The notes under the pieces are model-generated. The model saw nothing but the letters and a program-made list of their open reading frames with translations. It was not told where the DNA came from and ran no database searches. From the IMG/VR virus record IMGVR_UViG_2713896773_000025: 32,043 nucleotides of DNA; one strand, 5' to 3'. Origin of the DNA: a virus (Duplodnaviria; Heunggongvirae; Uroviricota; Caudoviricetes). Position 1 is the stretch's first letter; each line of letters starts with the position of its first letter. Made by a program: the position numbers and the translations under genes. Shown here piece after piece: positions 6,606-32,043 of the stretch.

Positions 6606-6979
6606 TGAATATAAATAAACATTCTGAGCGTAAGCCAGTGGTTTTCATTGCCGGTCCAATGACCGGGTATCACAACTTTAACCGCGATGAATTCAACGCT
6701 GAGGCTCGCATCCTGGAAGAGCGCGGCTTCACCGTTCTCAACCCGGCCATTCTTCCAGACGGCCTGCAGCATGAGCAGTACCTGCAAATTACATTGTCCA
6801 TGCTTGAGCAGGCTGATGCGGTATTCCTGCTGAACGGGTGGGAAAAGAGCACCGGCGCTACCAGGGAGTTTGATCGCGCCTGTGAGCTAGGGCTGCTGTT
6901 CCTTTACCAGGACTGGGAAAGCGTGTCGATTGCGATCCACCGTAAGCGTCACCCATTAACGGAGGTGAGTTATGCATAG
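6605..6979 (+). CDS. DUF4406 / nucleoside 2-deoxyribosyltransferase-like protein (124 aa)
   Basis: VVFIAGPMTG near the N-terminus and overall pattern recalled from the DUF4406 family; ATG at 6605 chosen over the GTG at 6539 because of stop-start coupling. Confidence 0.55.
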   Translation: MNINKHSERKPVVFIAGPMTGYHNFNRDEFNAEARILEERGFTVLNPAILPDGLQHEQYLQITLSMLEQADAVFLLNGWEKSTGATREFDRACELGLLFLYQDWESVSIAIHRKRHPLTEVSYA

Positions 6980-9995: not shown

Positions 9996-10593
9996 CTGGA
10001 AACCGCTGCTCGTCGTCGTGGTTCTGGCAGGCTGCGGGATATGGTTCGGCACCTTCCTCACAGGCAACAAGCTGGACGCTCAGGCGCTGGCCTTCAGCCA
10101 GGAGAAGCAACGCCTGACTGATGGTTTCAGTGAAAAAGAACGGCAGTGGGATCAGGAGAGGCTCAGCGCTGCAAATCAGTATGCAGCTGACCTGAAGGCT
10201 GCACTTGATAAGCAGAACGCCTGGCAGCAGAAAGCGGATGCGCTGACCCGCGAGCTGGCTGAAAAGCAAAAGGCACATGACGAGACTGTTCGCGATCTTA
10301 AAAAGAGGCTTAAAGATGCACTTGATAAAGATGGTCCTGGTTATACCGGCATTGGCCCTGGCGGCCTGCAGCTCTTCCGTGAAGCCTTTGGCTACTCAGG
10401 ATCCGAAAGCCACCCCGCTGGTCAGCATCTGCCAGCCACCGCCAGCGGCGCTCCTGGTCATACCGGCCAGACCACAGGCACCGGTGGCGGACTCTCCCCC
10501 ACTGGAATAGTGTCGTTTTCAGCGGAATACGGCGCATGGTGCCAGCTCATTGAGGGCAGGCTGCAGGCAATAAATGAGTATTACAGGAAGTGA
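9961..10593 (+). CDS. i-spanin, Rz-like (210 aa)
   Basis: ATG at 9961 gives a short cytoplasmic N-terminus, a TM helix (PLLVVVVLAGCGIWFGTFL) and a long charged coiled-coil-like periplasmic region; contains an embedded lipoprotein ORF. Confidence 0.7.
   Translation: MWEAAQKILRVSWKPLLVVVVLAGCGIWFGTFLTGNKLDAQALAFSQEKQRLTDGFSEKERQWDQERLSAANQYAADLKAALDKQNAWQQKADALTRELAEKQKAHDETVRDLKKRLKDALDKDGPGYTGIGPGGLQLFREAFGYSGSESHPAGQHLPATASGAPGHTGQTTGTGGGLSPTGIVSFSAEYGAWCQLIEGRLQAINEYYRK
10316..10510 (+). CDS. o-spanin, Rz1-like lipoprotein embedded in +1 frame of the i-spanin (64 aa)
   Basis: MHLIKMVLVIPALALAAC with a lipobox-like LAAC, Pro-rich mature part and a C-terminal-proximal Cys; entirely inside 9961..10593 in another frame. 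Confidence 0.65.
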   Translation: MHLIKMVLVIPALALAACSSSVKPLATQDPKATPLVSICQPPPAALLVIPARPQAPVADSPPLE

Positions 10594-10844: not shown

Positions 10845-11125
10845 AAGCCAGACATAAGCGCAGAACCCGCCGCGCGACAATCAGCCAGAGCGAGCAGGAA
10901 ACGCTGAGCCGGATTTCCGCTCAGCTCGAACGCCTGCAGGCCCCCGTCAGCCCGGACATTCTGGGCGGGATTAATGACAAGCTGAGCCGGATTGATGTTC
11001 GCCTCACGACCATCAGCGACGATGCGGCTCGCCGTGGTGCGTCTGCCGGTGCGATTACGGGTGGAATTGCAGGCGGTGTCATCACGGTGGCGATTCTGCT
11101 CATTCGCGCAAAACTGGAGCTGTGA
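10841..11125 (+). CDS. small protein with C-terminal TM helix (94 aa)
   Basis: Basic N-terminus, Gly/Ala-rich C-terminal hydrophobic segment AGAITGGIAGGVITVAILLI; start overlaps upstream stop. Confidence 0.5.
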   Translation: MKARHKRRTRRATISQSEQETLSRISAQLERLQAPVSPDILGGINDKLSRIDVRLTTISDDAARRGASAGAITGGIAGGVITVAILLIRAKLEL

Positions 11126-25861: not shown

Positions 25862-27189
25862 GCTGGGAAGATTCATTACAGGATGCCTCATTCAGGGGCG
25901 TCCGCTTTGATGTGGTTAATACCCGTGACAGCGCCAGTCGCGACATTGCGACGTATGAGTATCCCTATGTCGACGGTGGTGATGTTGATGATCTTGGCCG
26001 CAAGCCTCGTAACCTGCGGATGACAGTCCTTTTCTGGGGTGATGATTATGATGTGCGGCTGCAGGCGTTTCTGGCCGCACTGGATACTCGCGGTAGCGCA
26101 GAATTAATTCATCCCGTTTTCGGCTCCATGACGGGCATGCAGTGCATTGAGTATCAGGCATCGCATGAAGCGGAGAACGTTGATTACTGCGTTGTCGAAG
26201 TGGTCTTTATCCAGGGGGGACTTAATCTGCCTTTCTTTGGCAGCGATTTCCCGCTGTCGAAAGCTGATATCGTTTTCAACCAGGCGCAATCCGCTCTGGA
26301 GAAAGCCCAGACGGCCATCGACAATATTCTCTCGCCTCTGCGTACAGCGAAAAAGTGGATGAAAAAAGCGAAATCGCTGGCAACCACGACGCTGAATATG
26401 GTGACCGTGCTTAAGGGGGAACTGACGGGATTTGTCAGTACCACCTCGGATTTTGTTAATTACCCAAAATCGTTCATGAATGACCTGCAGAGTGCGCTGA
26501 GTCTGACGTCGTTTCAGTCCAAATCAAGTGTCAGTAATAATCCAGGAAGCTATTCACAGTCCTCAGACGTTTCCGGCACAGCAGGCATCGTGATGGCCGA
26601 CTGGAAGAATGGCCGTAACAATCTGCAGGATGTGGCCGCATTACCTCAGCAGATAGTGACCGGGAAAAAAACGGTTGCTGTTGCCGTTCCGGCAGGCTCA
26701 TCAACCTCGGATATTACCGAGCTGGTAACGGCGGTAAAAACTCAGGTTGCAATCCAGCTGGCACTTGATGCTTCCGACATACTCAGTGACAGCAGCATCA
26801 GCGATATTCTGTCTCCCGTTGATATTGAGCAGATCACCAACGACACCAGGACGGCCATTCAGGAGGCAATCGACCAGACGCGGGACACCTTTGCTGCTGA
26901 TACGCAAAACCTGAGTGCCGGTGAAACACCTGGTGGCGTGACCTGGCAACCCGTGGTTGAAGGTCTCAAGGATATCGCCCTGACCGTTCAGGAGCTGGGC
27001 TCAGCGGTTATTACCAGCAGACCACCACTGACTACGCGAGTGGTATTGTCCGACACAAACCTGCATTTGCTGGCCCACCTGTGGTATGAGGACTACACGC
27101 GCGCCGCCGAGTTGCTGCGTCTCAATCCGACACTACGTAATCCTAACAATATCAAAGCCGGTGACGTTCTGAATGCCTACTCAAGATAA
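25858..27189 (+). CDS. Mu N-like DNA circularisation protein (443 aa, GTG start)
   Basis: N-terminal ASFRGVRFDV...YEYPYVDGGDVDDLG resembles the DNA-circularisation N-terminal domain; follows the tape measure as in Mu. Confidence 0.72.
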   Translation: MSWEDSLQDASFRGVRFDVVNTRDSASRDIATYEYPYVDGGDVDDLGRKPRNLRMTVLFWGDDYDVRLQAFLAALDTRGSAELIHPVFGSMTGMQCIEYQASHEAENVDYCVVEVVFIQGGLNLPFFGSDFPLSKADIVFNQAQSALEKAQTAIDNILSPLRTAKKWMKKAKSLATTTLNMVTVLKGELTGFVSTTSDFVNYPKSFMNDLQSALSLTSFQSKSSVSNNPGSYSQSSDVSGTAGIVMADWKNGRNNLQDVAALPQQIVTGKKTVAVAVPAGSSTSDITELVTAVKTQVAIQLALDASDILSDSSISDILSPVDIEQITNDTRTAIQEAIDQTRDTFAADTQNLSAGETPGGVTWQPVVEGLKDIALTVQELGSAVITSRPPLTTRVVLSDTNLHLLAHLWYEDYTRAAELLRLNPTLRNPNNIKAGDVLNAYSR

Positions 27190-28390
27190 AGATTCGCAGA
27201 ATACAGTGAGCCTGGTTATTGATGGCAAAATCCATAGTGCATGGAGCCGCTATCAGATTGACTCCGATTTTCTGATCCCCTCCGATGCATGGAGCGTAAC
27301 GCTTGGGCTGCCTGATGGTATTTTCCCTCCGGCCATTAAACGTGGTGTGCCGGTGCTGGTCAGGGTGGGTAATGATGTTGTCATGTCCGGTCGGGTGGAT
27401 GTGGTTCAGCGCCGGGTATCCCGTCAGCAGGTTTCTTTATCTCTTTCCGGTCGCGATGGTGCAGCCGTGCTTGTTGACTGCGCTTCACCCGTTTTTACCT
27501 CCCGCCAGCTCAGTCTTGAAGAGGTGATCGCCCAGGTTGTCAGACCGCTGGGGATAACGAACATCCGCATCGAGGCTGAGTCATCCCTGCGTAATGACAA
27601 GGTCAGCGTGGAGCCCGGAGAACGTGCGTGGGATACCCTTGAGCGTGCAGCTGCTGCACGCGGGTTATGGCCATGGTTTGAGCCAGATGGCACGCTGGTA
27701 ATTGGAGGGCCGGATTACACAAAAGACCCTGTAGCCACGCTTGTTCTGAATCGTGACGGTCGGGGAAATAATGTCCTCGATCTCAGTGACCGGTCATCCA
27801 TTACCGGTGCGTTCTCTGAACTGACAATGCTGGCACAGGGACACGGCCAGGGGAAAAAGTCAGGAAGACTGGAAGTTATTGACGTTGATGATCAGAGCGC
27901 TGAGGCTGAAGACGATGATGATGCCGACGCAATTTATGACAGCACCGGCTCTGCAGAGAATGGCTTTCATGGCTTACGTAGTACCGTTCGCGACAGTACC
28001 GTACCTTTCTATCGTCCGCAGATTATGGTTGCTGGTGATGCTGATAATCAGGCGCAGGTTGATTATCGCGCGAGAAAGGCCATGGCTGACGCCCGTCTGA
28101 ACGGGTTTGATCTGACAGTAATTGTTAAAGGCCATCGCATGGAGAACGGTCAGTTATGGCAACCGGGCCAGCGTATTCGTGTCCGAAGCGAGCCACATGG
28201 CATTGATGACATTTACTTCCTCATGGGAAGAGAGTTTTCAGGTGGTCGTCCAGACAACACCATTACCACCCTGCGGCTCAAAGAGGATGGAATATGGATA
28301 CCGGATGCTTATCCGAAAAAACGCAAATCACGTAAGCGTCGCGCCAAAGTAAATAAAGAGCTGGAGATTATCGATGTGGAACAAAATTGA
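27173..28390 (+). CDS. baseplate hub / Mu P-like tail protein, gpD-like (405 aa)
   Basis: Position and size in the baseplate block. Confidence 0.7.
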   Translation: MPTQDKDSQNTVSLVIDGKIHSAWSRYQIDSDFLIPSDAWSVTLGLPDGIFPPAIKRGVPVLVRVGNDVVMSGRVDVVQRRVSRQQVSLSLSGRDGAAVLVDCASPVFTSRQLSLEEVIAQVVRPLGITNIRIEAESSLRNDKVSVEPGERAWDTLERAAAARGLWPWFEPDGTLVIGGPDYTKDPVATLVLNRDGRGNNVLDLSDRSSITGAFSELTMLAQGHGQGKKSGRLEVIDVDDQSAEAEDDDDADAIYDSTGSAENGFHGLRSTVRDSTVPFYRPQIMVAGDADNQAQVDYRARKAMADARLNGFDLTVIVKGHRMENGQLWQPGQRIRVRSEPHGIDDIYFLMGREFSGGRPDNTITTLRLKEDGIWIPDAYPKKRKSRKRRAKVNKELEIIDVEQN

Positions 28391-28979
28391 CTCTCGTATT
28401 AACACGGCGTTAAACCGTATAAGAAAGGCCTTCAGGGGCGTTTTAATAAGGGTTAACAGCGGTGGTGATATTCAGACCATTCAGGGTAAAGGTCTGGCCA
28501 CTGAGTCTTTGCAGGATGTGGAGATGTTTCAGCAGTACGGTTTTACATCCAACCCGCCCAGGGGGACTAAAGCCATTGTGCTCCCGCTTAACGGGCGCAC
28601 CAGTCATAGCGTGGTGATTGCCACGGAACACGCTGCATACAGGCTAAAGAGCCTGAAAAGTGGTGAGCTTGCCATTTATTCGGATGAAGGAAGCAACATT
28701 ATTCTGAAGCGCGGAAAAATAATTGAAGTAAACTGCGATGAATATATCGTTAATACTAAAAAGCACACGGTGAATACCGAACAACATATTGTTAATACCA
28801 AAACGTATAAAACCACAGCCTCAGAGCGGGCAGATTTTGATACACCATTGCTGAAAGGCAGTAATGAAGTCGCTGACGGCAAGTCTACGCTGAACACCAT
28901 GCGTGAGACTTATGACGGTCACGACCACGACCACGGCGGTGATGCAGGCACAACGCAGAAACCTAATCAGCAAATGTAA
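28374..28979 (+). CDS. baseplate spike protein, gpV-like (201 aa)
   Basis: Repeated YIVNTKKHTVNTEQHIVNTKTYK beta-helix-like repeats and C-terminal HDHDHGG metal-binding-like tip typical of spike proteins. Confidence 0.75.
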   Translation: MWNKIDSRINTALNRIRKAFRGVLIRVNSGGDIQTIQGKGLATESLQDVEMFQQYGFTSNPPRGTKAIVLPLNGRTSHSVVIATEHAAYRLKSLKSGELAIYSDEGSNIILKRGKIIEVNCDEYIVNTKKHTVNTEQHIVNTKTYKTTASERADFDTPLLKGSNEVADGKSTLNTMRETYDGHDHDHGGDAGTTQKPNQQM

Positions 28980-29015
28980 TTTGTGGTAACGTAAGTTCTC
29001 CTTCAAAAGCAATAC

Positions 29016-29077
29016 CCACTGAACCCCTTCACCGATAATTTAAATTTCCATGCCGGTAGTATTACGGCATGGAAATG
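29016..29077 (+). promoter_or_regulatory. late-promoter-like element, copy 3: motif CCACTGAACCCCTTCACC (29016..29033) plus 12-bp hairpin 29044..29076 covering both candidate start codons
   Basis: Stem ATTTCCATGCCG / CGGCATGGAAAT with loop GTAGTATTA; ATGs at 29069 and 29075 are inside the 3' arm. Confidence 0.55.
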
Positions 29078-29419
29078 TTGATTGATCCAACGACCGGCGA
29101 TTATACCGGCGACAGCTCAGACTCTTTAGCGAATGCCGTCTACTTACGGCTGATGACGCCCCTTGGCTCATGGTGGGCTGATCCAACTCTGGGCTCTCTT
29201 TTGCATACACTCCGCCGCGAAAAGGATGTGTCTCGCGTTCAACAACTCGCGGTGCAGTATTCGCGGCAGGCCCTGCAACCGATTATTGACGACGGTCGCG
29301 CCCAGTCCATTTCCGTTACTGCAGAGCACTGGCAAAAAGGCTGGATGCTGCTTCATATCACCGTCACGTCTGCGAGCGGAACGCCGCAGACCTGGAAATA
29401 TCCGGTTAAGGTCAGCTGA
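29069..29419 (+). CDS. baseplate protein, Mu gp46 / GP46-family (116 aa)
   Basis: Size and position before the baseplate J-like gene. Confidence 0.68.
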   Translation: MEMLIDPTTGDYTGDSSDSLANAVYLRLMTPLGSWWADPTLGSLLHTLRREKDVSRVQQLAVQYSRQALQPIIDDGRAQSISVTAEHWQKGWMLLHITVTSASGTPQTWKYPVKVS

Positions 29420-30486
29420 TGCCATTCATTACCAAAAATGCCGCGCAAATACGCACTGACATTCTGCGGGATATCAAAAATCTCCTGCAGTTGTCAGATG
29501 ATACGCTGGGCCCGGACAGCGACTGGTACATCCGGGCATCGAGTGTAGCCAGTGTTGCCGAGGGGCTTTATCAGCATCAGGGATGGATAGTCCGTCAGAT
29601 CTTTCCGGATACTGCTGATTCGGAATTCCTCTATCTGCACGCCCGTTTACGTGGTTTAAGCAAAAAAGCAGCCAACAGCGCCTCCGGGCCTGCCACGTTT
29701 ACCGGCGAACCAGGAGCGGTGGCCGCTGCCGGTCTTGTGTTCAAACGCGACAGTGTTTCGTGGACAACAACCGAAGATATTATTGTCGGGTCAGATGGAA
29801 AATCATCGGTAAACGCAGTGTCTTCTCTGGCCGGAACCACTGGTAACACCACTTCCGTCACATCGGCCACACTGACCACAACACCTGATGGGTTTGACAG
29901 CACAGTGACAGTAGGCCTGATGACTGGCGGAACAGATGAGGAAACGGATGCAGAGCTGCTTGCTCGTCTGCTTGAAATCATCCGCCGACCTCCTGCAGGC
30001 GGCAATAAATATGATTACAAACGCTGGGCGCTTGAGGTATCAGGCGTATCCGCCGCATATGTTTACCCTTTGCGGCGGGGGCCGGGTACCGTTGATGTTG
30101 TGATCACGTCTGCAGGTGGGCTGCCATCTCAGGATGTGATCGACAGGGTGCAGGCTCACATTGACGATGTCCGGCCTGTTACAGCAAAAAACACGCTGGT
30201 GCTCATACCTGTCATCCGTACATTTGACGTCCTCGTGAAGGTATCACTGGAGGGCATCACCCTCGCAGCAGCCAAACAGGCTGTCGCCGGAACGCTGGAG
30301 GACGATGACTCGCGCCGAGAGCCTGGAGTGGCTTTTATTCGCAGCCAGGCGGGGACATTGATTTCTCTAATTCCGGGTATTACCGACTATGACATCGTTA
30401 CACCATCGGCAAATATTCAACCGATAATCGATGCCACGAAAGTCGAATGGCTCAAATTAGGAAACGTTGAGGTAGAGCTGCTATGA
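29419..30486 (+). CDS. baseplate J-like protein, Mu gp47-like (355 aa)
   Basis: Size and position; start overlaps upstream stop. Confidence 0.78.
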   Translation: MPFITKNAAQIRTDILRDIKNLLQLSDDTLGPDSDWYIRASSVASVAEGLYQHQGWIVRQIFPDTADSEFLYLHARLRGLSKKAANSASGPATFTGEPGAVAAAGLVFKRDSVSWTTTEDIIVGSDGKSSVNAVSSLAGTTGNTTSVTSATLTTTPDGFDSTVTVGLMTGGTDEETDAELLARLLEIIRRPPAGGNKYDYKRWALEVSGVSAAYVYPLRRGPGTVDVVITSAGGLPSQDVIDRVQAHIDDVRPVTAKNTLVLIPVIRTFDVLVKVSLEGITLAAAKQAVAGTLEDDDSRREPGVAFIRSQAGTLISLIPGITDYDIVTPSANIQPIIDATKVEWLKLGNVEVELL

Positions 30487-31055
30487 GCTACTTCACGCTG
30501 TTAAATCGTCTGCTGCCACTTGTTTCGTACAGCCCGGGCCAGCCTCTGCTTGATGCATCATTGCGATCTGAATCAGGTGTTTTTGAGACTCTCGATGCGT
30601 CTGCAGGGCTTGTTGAAGGTGGAGTTACTCCATTTTATGCACGCAGCCTTTTGTATGACTGGGAACGCGTCCTGGACCTTACTCCTGCTGAAGGTGCGAC
30701 ATACCAGCAACGCCAGCAGCGTGTACTGGCTAAACTGGCTGAAGTCGGTGGTCTCAGTATTCCGTACTTTACTCAGTTGGCAAGCAACCTTGGCTACATC
30801 ATCACAATTGATGAACCGCAACCTTTCAGGGCGGGAGTTGGCCGCGCCGGTGATCGCCTCTGGGTTGAAGACATTATCTGGGTCTGGCGCGTCAATATTC
30901 AGAACTCAGGAACTCAATCCTATCGCTTTCGCTCAGGCAGTTCAGCTGCAGGTGAGCGCCTGACAACGTTTGGTGATCCGATTATTGAAGACGTCTTCCG
31001 TGATCTCAAACCAGCCCATACATTTTGCTACTTCGCATATCAGGAGAATGAATAA
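30483..31055 (+). CDS. tail protein, Mu gp48-like (DUF2313-like) (190 aa)
   Basis: Position between baseplate J-like gene and tail fibre; ATGA overlap. Confidence 0.68.
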
Positions 31056-31804
31056 TGCGGCCCTTAATGCCACCGGTGCAGACGCCGGATAATCTTTTCC
31101 ATGATGGTAATCCGCTCACAGGTGAGCTGGGGACCATTGTTGATGCTGAGCATCTGAATAACGTGCAGGGGGCTGTCAGAGATGCGCAGTCGGAGCTTAT
31201 TACTGTCCTGAACGCTGCCGGTATTAATGTTGATCCTTCTAAACAAAACCAGTTATTAACAGCACTAAAAGCGCTGTTACTGAGTCGCTCAAATCCGTTT
31301 GGCGATATCAAATCGGATGGCACCGTGAAAACGGCTCTCGAAAATCTTGGTTTGGGAGAAGGCTCAGCGTTACCCGTTGGTGTACCTGTTCCGTGGCCTT
31401 CAGCCACTCCGCCAACAGGCTGGCTGAAATGCAATGGTGCGCCTTTTTCTGCCGAAGAGTATCCGGAACTGGCAAAAGTTTATCCGACAAATGAATTGCC
31501 AGATTTACGTGGTGAGTTTATTCGTGGCTGGGATGATGGGCGAGGAGTTGATACGGGGCGCAGAATTCTGTCTGCTCAGGGGGATGCTATTAGAAATATT
31601 ACAGGCTGGTTTGGTGCGCACGCCACAGTGGTGGCTAAACCTCCGTTTGTTAAATTTTCTGCGCCGGAAATAGCAGAAAATGTCGGGGTTGGAGGGGGGA
31701 GTACGCGAGACGCTGTCAAACTTGATTTATCGTTATCGGTCCCCACGGCAAGCGAAAACCGCCCACGCAGTATCGCATTTAACTATATCGTGAGGGCTGC
31801 ATAA
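31055..31804 (+). CDS. short tail fibre protein with phage tail-collar-type domain (249 aa)
   Basis: [31 protein letters not shown]...[19 protein letters not shown] pattern characteristic of the tail-collar fibre domain. Confidence 0.75.
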
Positions 31805-32043
31805 TGACACAGGCAAAATTAAACAGTGAATTTATTGCCACAGTAGCGGGTGATATTACCGTCTATAACTATGACAACACGACACGGGAATACATTTCAT
31901 CATCAACAGAATATCTTGCCGTTGGCGTCGGTATCCCGGCATGTTCTTGTTTAGATGCACCAGTTACACATAAAGCTGGTTATGCAATCTGCCGTTCTGC
32001 AGATTTTAACTCATGGGAATATGTGCCAGACCATCGCGGTGAA
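31804..32043 (+). CDS. tail fibre assembly protein, Tfa-like, truncated by window end
   Basis: N-terminus VYNYDNTTREYI...GIPA...DAP...AGYAICRSADFNSWEYVPDHRG follows the pattern of lambdoid/Mu-type tail fibre assembly proteins; no stop codon before the window ends. Confidence 0.7.
   Translation, partial: MTQAKLNSEFIATVAGDITVYNYDNTTREYISSSTEYLAVGVGIPACSCLDAPVTHKAGYAICRSADFNSWEYVPDHRGE

What the first reader, a model, noticed from the sequence alone, without database searches (positions are those of the whole stretch)
31055..32043. Short tail-collar fibre plus Tfa at the window edge
The fibre gene is only 249 aa and is followed by a Tfa-like gene cut by the window end. In Mu the fibre genes sit next to the invertible G segment, so a host-range switching module may lie just beyond this window.
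Basis: partly seen in the sequence, partly recalled or inferred. Interest (0 to 1): 0.22.

Follow-up and report, generated by a model that had tools for sequence, protein, structure and literature searches.

The report
Invertible tail-fibre switch, cut by contig end
The short tail-fibre gene and truncated chaperone gene at the window edge are the left half of an ordinary Mu/e14-type DNA-inversion switch that lets an E. coli Mu-like prophage alternate between two fibre tips. The other half cannot be seen because the source contig ends exactly where the window ends.

Summary
ORF 31055-31804 encodes a 249-aa fibre with a Tail Collar domain. It is followed by the first 80 codons of a 200-aa-type Tfa chaperone, which the window end cuts off.

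New here: the fibre gene contains a 26-bp Gin/Pin-type crossover site at 31335-31360 (CTCTCGAAAATC-TT-GGTTTGGGAGAA). This includes an exact copy of the published e14 P-segment inverted repeat, TTGGTTTGGGAGAAGG. So the switch starts inside the window: residues 1-98 are the constant part, and residues 99-249 plus Tfa already lie in the invertible cassette.

The window end is also the end of the source contig (E. coli LDYI01000145.1), so the true downstream sequence could not be read.

Sister prophages support the prediction. In all 10 long contigs encoding an identical gp48 (backbone 99.4-99.98% identical), an inverted Tfa and/or fibre tip and a Gin-like invertase follow. Nine of the ten share one inverted outer half-site, and host DNA comes next.

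The same cassette (97-99% identical) also occurs next to invertase genes in e14-like and P2-like prophages.

This is a new member of a well-known kind, and interest is low.

One side observation: whole segments appear to be swapped between near-identical backbones, with the breakpoints at the central dinucleotide of the crossover sites.

The parts
30483..31055 (+). Mu gp48 / YmfQ-like baseplate gene. It is context only: the last backbone gene before the fibre.
   Evidence: Pfam PF10076 Phage_Mu_Gp48, E 1.2e-27. The identical protein is encoded in the sister prophages L093-L102.
31055..31804 (+). Tail fibre gene, 249 aa. It is a fusion of a constant part and a variable part.
   Evidence: ORF. 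Pfam Collar at residues 109-156, E 1.8e-14. Residues 103-247 match PDB 9cuy_c 'Short tail fiber' (E 5e-27), and residues 91-182 match T4 gp37 2xgf (E 5.5e-17).
31055..31348 (+). Constant fibre part (Sc equivalent, residues 1-98), lying outside the invertible segment.
   Evidence: Window 27173-31360 is 100.000% identical to L007 and 99.4-99.98% identical to L093-L102. The identity stops inside the crossover site.
31335..31360 (+). 26-bp DNA-invertase crossover site (left inverted repeat): CTCTCGAAAATC | TT | GGTTTGGGAGAA. The central dinucleotide is at 31347-31348, in codon Leu98.
   Evidence: One match in the window against 0.00 expected, and no second or inverted copy in the window. Bases 31347-31362 equal the e14 P-segment inverted repeat TTGGTTTGGGAGAAGG (PMC12529663). 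17 of 26 bases are identical to Mu gix. The same site ends Sc in sister loci, where an inverted partner lies upstream of the invertase gene.
31349..31804 (+). Variable fibre tip (Sv equivalent, residues 99-249, collar type), inside the invertible segment and here in the expressed orientation.
   Evidence: Window 31361-32043 is 99.1% identical to the cassette that lies inverted beside pinE in E. coli EH10-18-47 (L002). A 97.9% identical copy is fused to a P2 H-like fibre in L103, and a 97.6% identical copy lies next to a recombinase gene in L104.
31804..32043 (+). First 80 codons of the cassette's tail fibre assembly (Tfa) gene. It is cut by the window end, which is also the contig end.
   Evidence: 79/80 identical to tfaE, a 200-aa protein, in L002. 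Precomputed Pfam label Caudo_TAP_N. Contig LDYI01000145.1 ends at this base.

Best explanation
The fibre gene is the expressed fusion product of a Gin/Pin-type invertible tail-fibre segment in an uncharacterised Mu-like transposable prophage of E. coli.

What the window shows:
- Residues 1-98 are a fixed N-terminal part that presumably anchors the fibre to the baseplate.
- A 26-bp crossover site at 31335-31360 sits in codons 94-102.
- Everything to its right (fibre tip residues 99-249 and the Tfa chaperone) belongs to a segment of about 1.5-2.4 kb.

What is inferred for the DNA beyond the contig end:
- the rest of Tfa;
- a convergent second Tfa and a second, promoter-less fibre tip in the opposite orientation;
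- an inverted copy of the crossover site;
- about 107 nt further on, a gene for a small serine DNA invertase of about 186 aa;
- then the prophage right end.

Inferred mechanism, taken from the family: the invertase cuts both sites at the central TT and rotates the segment. This joins the alternative tip in frame to the constant part and places its own chaperone downstream. A lysogen population would then release virions with two receptor specificities.

Shown here: the genes, the left site, the identity of the cassette, and the complete architecture in near-identical sister prophages.

Inferred, not shown: that this particular copy still has its right half and still inverts, and what the two tips bind.
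For: - Site: there is one match in the window against 0 expected. It contains the experimentally defined e14 P-segment repeat (PMC12529663) and fits the 26-bp architecture described for Mu, P1, e14, p15B and for E. coli prophages (PMC4134206).
- Alignment of seven sites shows an invariant TTGGTTT.GGAGAAG. Flanks are constant on the outer side and cassette-specific on the inner side.
- Sister prophages L004/L009, L005/L008/L097 and L007 have a 99.6-100% identical backbone. They carry the order Sc | Sv-Tfa | Tfa'-Sv' | invertase.
- 10 of 10 long-contig places with an identical gp48 have an inverted Tfa and/or tip ORF plus a Resolvase-family gene, followed by host genes. Nine of the ten share one inverted outer half-site plus TT.
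- Of 43 IMG/VR relatives with at least 2.8 kb of downstream sequence, 38 have an invertase, 40 an inverted Tfa, and 37 both.
- Pfam gives Resolvase (+HTH_7) for the invertases tested (L004, L005, L001), Caudo_TAP for both Tfa types, and Collar versus Gp53-like_C for the two tip types.
- The best solved relative of the sister invertase is Mu Gin, over its full length (E 2e-55).
- The gene order is collinear with the annotated Mu G region.
Against: - The right half was not seen for this genome. The contig ends 683 nt after the site. No inverted partner site exists in the window.
- This exact Sc-Sv junction was found nowhere else: 0 hits in viral, genome and metagenome collections, and 1 contig for the exact protein.
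- Some relatives lack an invertase (L016, L076) or have one that looks frameshifted (L004/L009, L103). A locked copy is therefore possible.
- No read-level evidence of both orientations was available.
- The Fis enhancer was not examined.
Confidence: 0.82

Rival explanations
1. Locked or vestigial switch. The crossover site is a relic. In this strain the partner site, the alternative cassette or the invertase has been lost or inactivated, so the prophage makes only the collar-type fibre.
For: - Relatives without a detectable invertase exist: L016 and L076, each with 5 kb of downstream sequence.
- The invertase in L004/L009, the sister in the same orientation as the window, appears as two pieces and gives a 154-aa ORF lacking the HTH.
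- The P2-like prophage L103 carries this same cassette fused in the expressed orientation, next to a frameshifted recombinase gene.
Against: - All 10 long-contig sisters with an identical gp48 have a full-length 186-193-aa invertase ORF.
- Pin-family invertases act in trans on such sites: PinE, PinQ and PinR all invert e14 P (PMC12529663), and a truncated invertase is complemented in EC958 (PMC4134206). Loss of the prophage's own enzyme alone would therefore not lock the segment.
- The site in the window has no mutations relative to active e14 repeats.
Confidence: 0.08
2. The junction is not a native G-like segment of this prophage. Either the assembler joined the Mu-like Sc to a cassette from a co-resident e14-like or P2-like prophage, or a real invertase-mediated recombination between sites of two different prophages (a large chromosomal rearrangement) made the join. 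In that case what lies downstream is the other prophage.
For: - The 683 nt after the site are 97-99% identical to cassettes of e14-like and P2-like prophages.
- L007 has a 100.000% identical 4.2-kb backbone, but a different cassette follows its site.
- The full-length 249-aa protein occurs on one contig only. All other members of its cluster are 146-165-aa proteins, of which the one looked up (P0003) is a stand-alone tip ORF in a P2-like prophage.
- The exact junction is absent from three collections.
Against: - The sequence shared between a Mu-like left site and an e14-type invertase-side site is only about 15-17 nt. That is too short for an assembler to bridge.
- The window keeps the lineage-specific T in the left half-site (AAAATC) right up to the core.
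- Every sister prophage has a different cassette behind the same left half-site, so a unique combination is what one expects.
- An inverted cassette would still follow even under this scenario.
Confidence: 0.05
3. The switch mainly serves the lysogen rather than the virion. Inversion would produce a chimeric fibre-tip protein that blocks adsorption of other phages, as reported for e14 StfE2.
For: PMC12529663 reports that inversion of the e14 P segment, which has the same inverted repeat, creates StfE2, a protein with a gp53-like C-terminal domain that blocks T2 adsorption. Sister prophages carry gp53-like_C tips as the alternative cassette.
Against: - Unlike cryptic e14, this element has a complete set of Mu-like transposition, head, tail and baseplate genes.
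- Two assemblies hold two copies at different chromosomal sites, which suggests an active phage that needs functional fibres.
- Nothing was tested here for defence. This explanation is not exclusive of host-range switching.
Confidence: 0.05

Closest known systems
Phage Mu invertible G segment with Gin (S/U versus S'/U')
   Same: - The gene order is the same: gp48, fibre constant part, boundary inside the fibre gene, Sv, Tfa(U), inverted U' and S', boundary, invertase (Mu annotation; sisters).
- The backbone is Mu-like: MuA/MuB, Mor, GemA and gp44-48.
- The site has the same 12-2-12 layout, and 17 of 26 bases are identical to gix.
   Different: - The constant part is 98 aa here against about 170 aa in Mu. 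The fibre is 249 aa against 504 aa. The segment is about 1.5-2.4 kb in sisters against 3 kb.
- The central dinucleotide is TT here and TC in Mu.
- The usual sister invertase is only 49% identical to Gin.
- In the sisters, host DNA follows the invertase, with no com/mom genes called.
- gp48 is 24% identical, and the fibre aligns only over 82 residues at 35%.
- No DNA-level match to Mu or any phage record covers the backbone.
e14 invertible P segment with PinE (stfP/tfaP versus stfE/tfaE) and e14-like prophages
   Same: - The 16-nt inverted repeat TTGGTTTGGGAGAAGG is exact (against window 31347-31362).
- The fibres are short, with a conserved ...ALENLGLGE junction.
- Collar-type and gp53-like tips alternate, paired with 200-aa and 146-aa Tfa types.
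- The window's tip plus Tfa is 99.1% identical to the cassette beside pinE in E. coli EH10-18-47.
   Different: - The backbone differs: gp48 is about 26% identical and Sc 56%.
- The left half-site has T where e14-like elements have C.
- In the sisters, the outer half-site on the invertase side is ATCCACAAAAGG, not TTTTCATAAACG, and the invertase is 52% identical to PinE.
- This element is a transposable Mu-like prophage, not the cryptic e14 element.
Invertible tail-fibre segments of P2-like E. coli prophages (for example EC958 Phi1, Phi2 and Phi4)
   Same: - They have 26-bp crossover sites with TT/GGTTT cores inside the fibre gene. EC958 Phi2 has TCCTCAATTACC-TT-GGTTTAGGAGAA (PMC4134206).
- The same cassette as in the window occurs in the P2-like prophages L103 and L104 at 97.6-97.9% identity.
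- Such loci break or duplicate contigs in assemblies.
   Different: The constant part there is a long P2 H-like fibre (427 aa in L103), and the backbone is P2-like, not Mu-like.
P1 C segment/Cin, p15B Min and Shigella boydii B segment/PinB (the Din family)
   Same: The family of small serine invertases and the crossover-site consensus are the same (consensus cited in PMC4134206 from Sandmeier 1994). The remainder of this comparison rests on my own knowledge of the family.
   Different: These were not compared at sequence level here. Min mediates multiple inversions among six sites. Nothing in the sisters suggests more than two sites, apart from a tandem arrangement in L056.

Membership tests
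Gin/Pin/Cin/Hin (Din) invertase-controlled invertible tail-fibre segment | A 26-bp crossover site (two imperfect 12-bp half-sites around a 2-bp core) located inside the fibre gene at the constant/variable boundary. | tested here: met
   Window 31335-31360. It is unique in the window against 0 expected. It contains the exact e14 repeat. 17 of 26 bases are identical to Mu gix. Backbone identity to the sisters ends inside it.
Gin/Pin/Cin/Hin (Din) invertase-controlled invertible tail-fibre segment | A second crossover site in inverted orientation, 1-4 kb away. | not testable with these tools
   There is none in the window, and the contig ends 683 nt after the first site. Partner sites are present in sisters and relatives about 1.5-2.4 kb downstream. 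In the 9 sisters that share the 186-aa invertase, the central TT lies about 107 nt upstream of the invertase ATG.
Gin/Pin/Cin/Hin (Din) invertase-controlled invertible tail-fibre segment | An adjacent gene for a small serine recombinase of the DNA-invertase subfamily. | not testable with these tools
   It is not in the window. It is present in 10 of 10 sisters with an identical gp48. Pfam gives Resolvase+HTH_7. The best PDB match is Gin 3uj3/4m6f, E 2e-55, against 3e-21 for resolvases. Identity to Gin/PinE is 49-52%, or 70% for the L100 variant.
Gin/Pin/Cin/Hin (Din) invertase-controlled invertible tail-fibre segment | An alternative fibre tip plus its own Tfa, encoded in the opposite orientation inside the segment. 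| not testable with these tools
   The window holds only the expressed tip and 80 codons of its Tfa. The sisters have an inverted Tfa and/or tip ORF. 40 of 43 relatives with enough sequence have an inverted Tfa.
Gin/Pin/Cin/Hin (Din) invertase-controlled invertible tail-fibre segment | Both orientations are observed for the same segment. | tested here: inconclusive
   The window's cassette is expressed here and in L103, but lies inverted next to the invertase gene in L002 and L104. L005's expressed cassette lies inverted in L054 at 97-99% amino-acid identity. These cases are on different backbones, and no read-level data exist for this strain.
Gin/Pin/Cin/Hin (Din) invertase-controlled invertible tail-fibre segment | A Fis-dependent recombinational enhancer in cis, usually in the 5' part of the invertase gene. 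| not tested
   No reliable sequence test was available. The requirement is known from Hin/Gin work (title and abstract of PMC3798978, listed).
Tail fibre assembly protein (Tfa, Caudo_TAP) | A Caudo_TAP chaperone domain encoded immediately downstream of the fibre tip. | tested here: inconclusive
   Only the N-terminal 80 aa are in the window. They are 99% identical to a 200-aa tfaE. In the 200-203-aa Tfa types of the sisters L004 and L005, residues 78-202 are PF02413. The local Pfam scan of the fragment found no hit. The precomputed label is Caudo_TAP_N.
Mu-like transposable myovirus prophage | MuA/MuB-type transposition genes plus the Mu gp44-gp48 baseplate module. | tested here: met
   Pfam finds Mu-transpos_C, an AAA_22/TniB-like MuB equivalent, Mor and GemA in identical copies. 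gp44, gp45, gp46, Baseplate_J and gp48 are in the window. Copies lie at many different chromosomal sites.

The most novel reading that the evidence does not exclude
The invertible segment behaves as a plug-in cassette that is exchanged whole between unrelated co-resident prophages (Mu-like, e14-like, P2-like) by recombination at the invertase crossover sites themselves. That would be a natural form of recombinase-mediated cassette exchange.

The evidence is as follows. Sister backbones that are 98-100% identical on both sides carry unrelated 1.5-2.4-kb segments. Identity is lost immediately inside the central TT of both sites. The window looks like a recent product: its backbone is 100.000% identical to L007 up to the site, and the sequence after the site is 99% identical to a cassette from an e14-like prophage.

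If trans-acting Pin enzymes catalyse this, prophage invertases would drive horizontal host-range evolution as well as phase variation.
Probability: 0.3. Interest if true: 0.45.

Novelty: new member of a known kind. Interest (0 to 1): 0.2.

Why it matters
As annotation, this turns a 'short phage tail protein' (UniProt even names it 'Integrase') and a truncated ORF into a defined half of a host-range switch. It also explains why the contig stops there. This is a routine but useful warning: draft assemblies systematically break in these segments, so the fibre repertoires of prophages are under-counted.

Biologically it is one more instance of a mechanism known since Mu, P1 and e14, now in an uncharacterised but widespread Mu-like E. 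coli prophage lineage. The only aspect that might repay further work is the sharp, site-bounded swapping of whole segments among otherwise near-identical prophages.

Tried and rejected
Attempts to read the true downstream DNA all failed.
- An exact-protein look-up returned only the source contig, which ends at the window end.
- Exact searches for the Sc-Sv junction found nothing in IMG/VR, the GTDB species genomes or the JGI metagenomes.
- A cluster mate from the same submission batch (KPO14375.1, P0003) was looked up, but the place shown came from another assembly, GCA_049929955.1.

L007 was tested as the same prophage simply flipped, and this was rejected. Its inverted Tfa is only 84.8% identical to the window's Tfa.

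An assembly chimera was considered and judged unlikely, because the sequence shared at the would-be join is only about 15-17 nt.

Searches that added nothing:
- NCBIfam gave only below-cutoff hits for the invertases and none for the fibre or Tfa.
- No solved structure matched the Tfa by sequence.
- The phage collection holds no close relative of the backbone. The best hit covers 9% at 75% identity.

Not attempted: structure prediction (it would not change the conclusion) and a search for Fis enhancer sites (there is no reliable test).
Full report
**1. The observation**

ORF 31055..31804 (+) encodes 249 aa. Its ATG overlaps the stop codon of the preceding gene in a TAATG motif. It matches Pfam PF07484 (Phage Tail Collar) at residues 109-156 with E 1.8e-14.

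Residues 103-247 match a solved 'Short tail fiber' (9cuy_c, E 5e-27). Residues 91-182 match the T4 gp37 fibre fragment (2xgf, E 5.5e-17).

A second ORF starts at ATG 31804, again with a TAATG overlap, and is cut after 80 codons by the window end. Those 80 residues are 79/80 identical to the N-terminus of an annotated 200-aa tfaE. The collection's precomputed Pfam label for the fragment is Caudo_TAP_N. The local Pfam scan of the fragment alone found nothing.

Upstream lie homologues of Mu gp44, gp45, gp46, gp47 (Baseplate_J) and gp48. MuA- and MuB-like genes lie at the left end of the window. The element is therefore a Mu-like transposable prophage.

NCBI holds the fibre as WP_054623578.1/KPO06850.1 from Escherichia coli.

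**2. The window end is a contig end**

The exact fibre protein is on record on a single contig, LDYI01000145.1 of assembly GCA_001309485.1 (317,424 bp). That contig stops 240 nt after the fibre stop codon, at the last base of the window.

Exact searches for the junction sequence in IMG/VR, the GTDB species genomes and the JGI metagenomes found no other copy.

**3. A recombination site inside the fibre gene**

A megablast of 30483-32043 against 5,426 complete E. coli genomes gave a split result. The left part (gp48 and the first ~100 nt of the fibre gene) matched one related prophage. The right part, starting at window 31336-31347, matched 'phage tail protein + tail fiber assembly protein' pairs at 97-99% identity in the best-matching genomes.

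At the split lies CTCTCGAAAATC-TT-GGTTTGGGAGAA (31335-31360). It occurs once in the window even with 3 mismatches allowed, against 0.00 expected. No second or inverted copy of its right half exists in the window.

Bases 31347-31362 are an exact copy of the inverted repeat TTGGTTTGGGAGAAGG, which flanks the 1,797-bp P segment of prophage e14. PinE, PinQ and PinR recombine at that repeat (PMC12529663).

The layout is 12-bp half-site, 2-bp core, 12-bp half-site. This is the layout described for invertase-mediated 'phage tail switching' in Mu, P1, e14, p15B and in E. coli EC958 prophages (PMC4134206). 17 of 26 bases are identical to Mu gix, TTATCCAAAACC-TC-GGTTTACAGGAA, taken from the Mu record.

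The central TT falls in codon Leu98. Residues 1-98 are therefore the constant part. Residues 99-249 plus Tfa already belong to the invertible segment.

**4. What follows in sister prophages**

*Three IMG/VR contigs.* A 35-nt exact pattern from the constant part retrieved three IMG/VR contigs.
- L005 reads: gp47, gp48 (identical), a 214-aa fibre with the same N-terminus but a Gp53-like_C tip, a 146-aa Tfa, an inverted 203-aa Tfa, an inverted collar-type tip ORF, then a 186-aa Resolvase+HTH_7 protein and a host gene.
- L004 has the collar tip expressed, as in the window. Its order is: a 200-aa Tfa, an inverted 146-aa Tfa, an inverted gp53-like tip and an invertase.

*Crossover sites.* An alignment of the sites shows an invariant TTGGTTT.GGAGAAG. 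The flanks are backbone-specific on the outer side and cassette-specific on the inner side.

*Ten long contigs.* A look-up of the exact gp48 protein returned ten places on contigs of 0.2-5.2 Mb, each inserted at a different host locus.
- All ten have a fibre, a Tfa, an inverted Tfa and/or tip ORF, and a 186-193-aa Resolvase-family gene followed by host genes.
- Their backbones are 99.4-99.98% identical to window 27173-31360.

*Eighty IMG/VR relatives of the constant part.* 43 have at least 2.8 kb of downstream sequence. Of these, 38 have an invertase, 40 an inverted Tfa, and 37 both.

*The invertase.* The sister invertase matches Mu Gin (3uj3, 4m6f) over its full length at E 2e-55, against about 1e-21 for resolvases. 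It is a divergent member of the family:
- 49% identical to Gin and 52% to PinE;
- for comparison, PinE and Gin are 77% identical to each other.

*Gene order.* It is collinear with the annotated Mu G region: gp48, S with an internal G-segment boundary, U, U', S', boundary, gin.

**5. The cassette is shared among unrelated prophages**

The 683 nt after the site are related to cassettes on three other backbones:
- 99.1% identical to the cassette lying inverted beside pinE in an e14-like prophage of E. coli EH10-18-47;
- 97.9% identical to a copy fused in the expressed orientation to a 427-aa P2 H-like fibre, in L103, which has a frameshifted recombinase gene;
- 97.6% identical to a copy lying next to a recombinase gene in another P2-like prophage, L104.

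All other members of the fibre's 90% cluster are 146-165-aa proteins, much shorter than the 249-aa fusion. The one looked up, P0003, is a stand-alone 150-aa collar ORF followed by a Tfa in a P2-like prophage.

**6. Mechanism**

Best explanation: a Gin/Pin-type inversion switch. The invertase cuts both inverted sites at the central TT and rotates the segment. This fuses the alternative tip in frame to residues 1-98 and places that tip's own Tfa downstream, so the phage alternates between two receptor-binding tips.

This is shown for the family (Mu G and P1 C alter host range; summarised in PMC12529663, and PMC4272514). For this copy it is inferred. I put about 0.82 on the real genome having the inverted partner site and an invertase gene downstream. 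I put somewhat less on the switch being active.

Rivals:
- A locked or vestigial copy. Some relatives lack the invertase or have a broken one. However, trans-acting Pin enzymes are documented.
- An assembly chimera or inter-prophage rearrangement. The join is unique. However, only about 15-17 nt are shared at the would-be junction.
- A defence role like e14 StfE2. This was not tested and is not exclusive of host-range switching.

**7. Why the contig stops there**

In the 200-203-aa Tfa types of the sisters L004 and L005, the Caudo_TAP domain starts at residue 78-81. The window stops at residue 80.

The Tfa 3' part just beyond that point, taken from L002, is at least 90% identical in 2,346 of 2,668 matching E. 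coli records, with up to 7 places per genome. The 5' part inside the window reaches 90% in only 70 of 1,648 records. The contig therefore ends where a widely repeated sequence begins.

This is typical. 19 of the 80 IMG/VR contigs end within 400 nt after the site, and 30 end within 2 kb. The contig carrying P0003 also ends inside the segment. PMC4134206 reports that such segments generate extra contigs even in PacBio assemblies.

**8. Side observation on cassette exchange**

In the ten sisters, the left half-site plus TT is constant, and the right half-site differs with the cassette. On the other side, the outer half-site ATCCACAAAAGG plus TT is constant in nine of them.

For those nine, there are no mismatches to L097 in the first ~110 nt upstream of the invertase ATG. 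Mismatches begin just inside the central TT. The segments in between (1,531-2,431 nt) share at most 343 alignable nt at 72-80% identity.

L007 is 100.000% identical to the window over 4,188 nt up to the site, then differs. Its inverted Tfa is only 84.8% identical to the window's, so the window is not a simple flip of L007.

Whole segments are thus exchanged with breakpoints at the crossover points. Whether the invertases catalyse this exchange is open.

**9. Verdict**

This is a new member of a well-known kind, in a Mu-like E. coli prophage lineage that has no close relative among deposited phage genomes. Only one related copy was found among 5,426 complete E. coli genomes. Interest is low (0.2).

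Noticed in passing
window 32043 (= end of contig LDYI01000145.1); L007-L086; L105: The window end is the true end of a 317-kb contig. 19 of 80 related IMG/VR contigs stop within 400 nt after the crossover site, and 30 stop within 2 kb. The break in the window coincides with the start of the widely repeated Caudo_TAP domain of Tfa. Draft assemblies systematically lose this module.
   Followed up: partly
window 31335-31360; L093-L102 around 6853-6878 and about 95-120 nt upstream of the invertase genes: Near-identical sister backbones (98-100% on both flanks) carry unrelated 1.5-2.4-kb segments. Identity is lost immediately inside the central TT of both crossover sites. This suggests whole-segment exchange at the recombination sites themselves. 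L007 is 100.000% identical to the window for 4,188 nt and then diverges after the site.
   Followed up: partly
L099/L100 (GCA_050191705.1) and L101/L102 (GCA_040813435.1): Two assemblies each hold two copies of this Mu-like prophage at distant chromosomal positions. All copies retrieved sit at different host loci. This is consistent with an active transposable phage. L099 and L100 differ in their invertase (186 aa against a 193-aa protein 70% identical to Gin) and in the inverted tip ORF.
   Followed up: no
L097:8845-9405 and equivalents in L093-L099, L101, L102: The usual invertase of this lineage is a divergent member of the family. It is 49% identical to Mu Gin and 52% to PinE, whereas PinE and Gin are 77% identical. 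It has its own outer half-site, ATCCACAAAAGG. The HTH_7 match is below the Pfam cut-off (23.1 bits against 23.8).
   Followed up: partly
L001:9573-11634 (E. coli FDAARGOS_1303); L012, L022, L023, L024: Related prophages (gp48 94-96% identical) have only one fibre tip and one Tfa before the invertase, with no alternative cassette. In L001, a 17-nt inverted repeat (10068-10084 / 11066-11082) brackets the fibre C-terminus and Tfa, and it overlaps the invertase start codon. This could be an on/off switch, a relic or chance.
   Followed up: no
L004:117-581 (= L009 7177-7724): In the sister whose segment has the same orientation as the window, the invertase reads as a 154-aa ORF without the HTH, and tblastn finds it in two pieces. 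It is either frameshifted (locked orientation) or a metagenome assembly error.
   Followed up: no
window 31055-31804: UniRef/UniProt names this fibre 'Integrase' (A0A0P7LX76_ECOLX), which is a misannotation. NCBI calls it 'phage tail protein'.
   Followed up: no
whole window (1-31360): The prophage backbone has no close relative among 50,697 deposited phage genomes. The best hit is a Klebsiella phage covering 9% at 75% identity. Only one related copy (94%) was found in 5,426 complete E. coli genomes. Yet identical gp48 and MuA proteins are indexed in hundreds of blocks of the assembly collection, so this is a common but uncharacterised Mu-like phage.
   Followed up: partly
L056:5238-10249: One e14-like relative shows a tandem duplication: cassette, invertase, then a second Tfa / inverted Tfa / inverted collar tip / invertase set, with three crossover sites. 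This might allow multiple inversions or might be an assembly duplication of alternative alleles.
   Followed up: no
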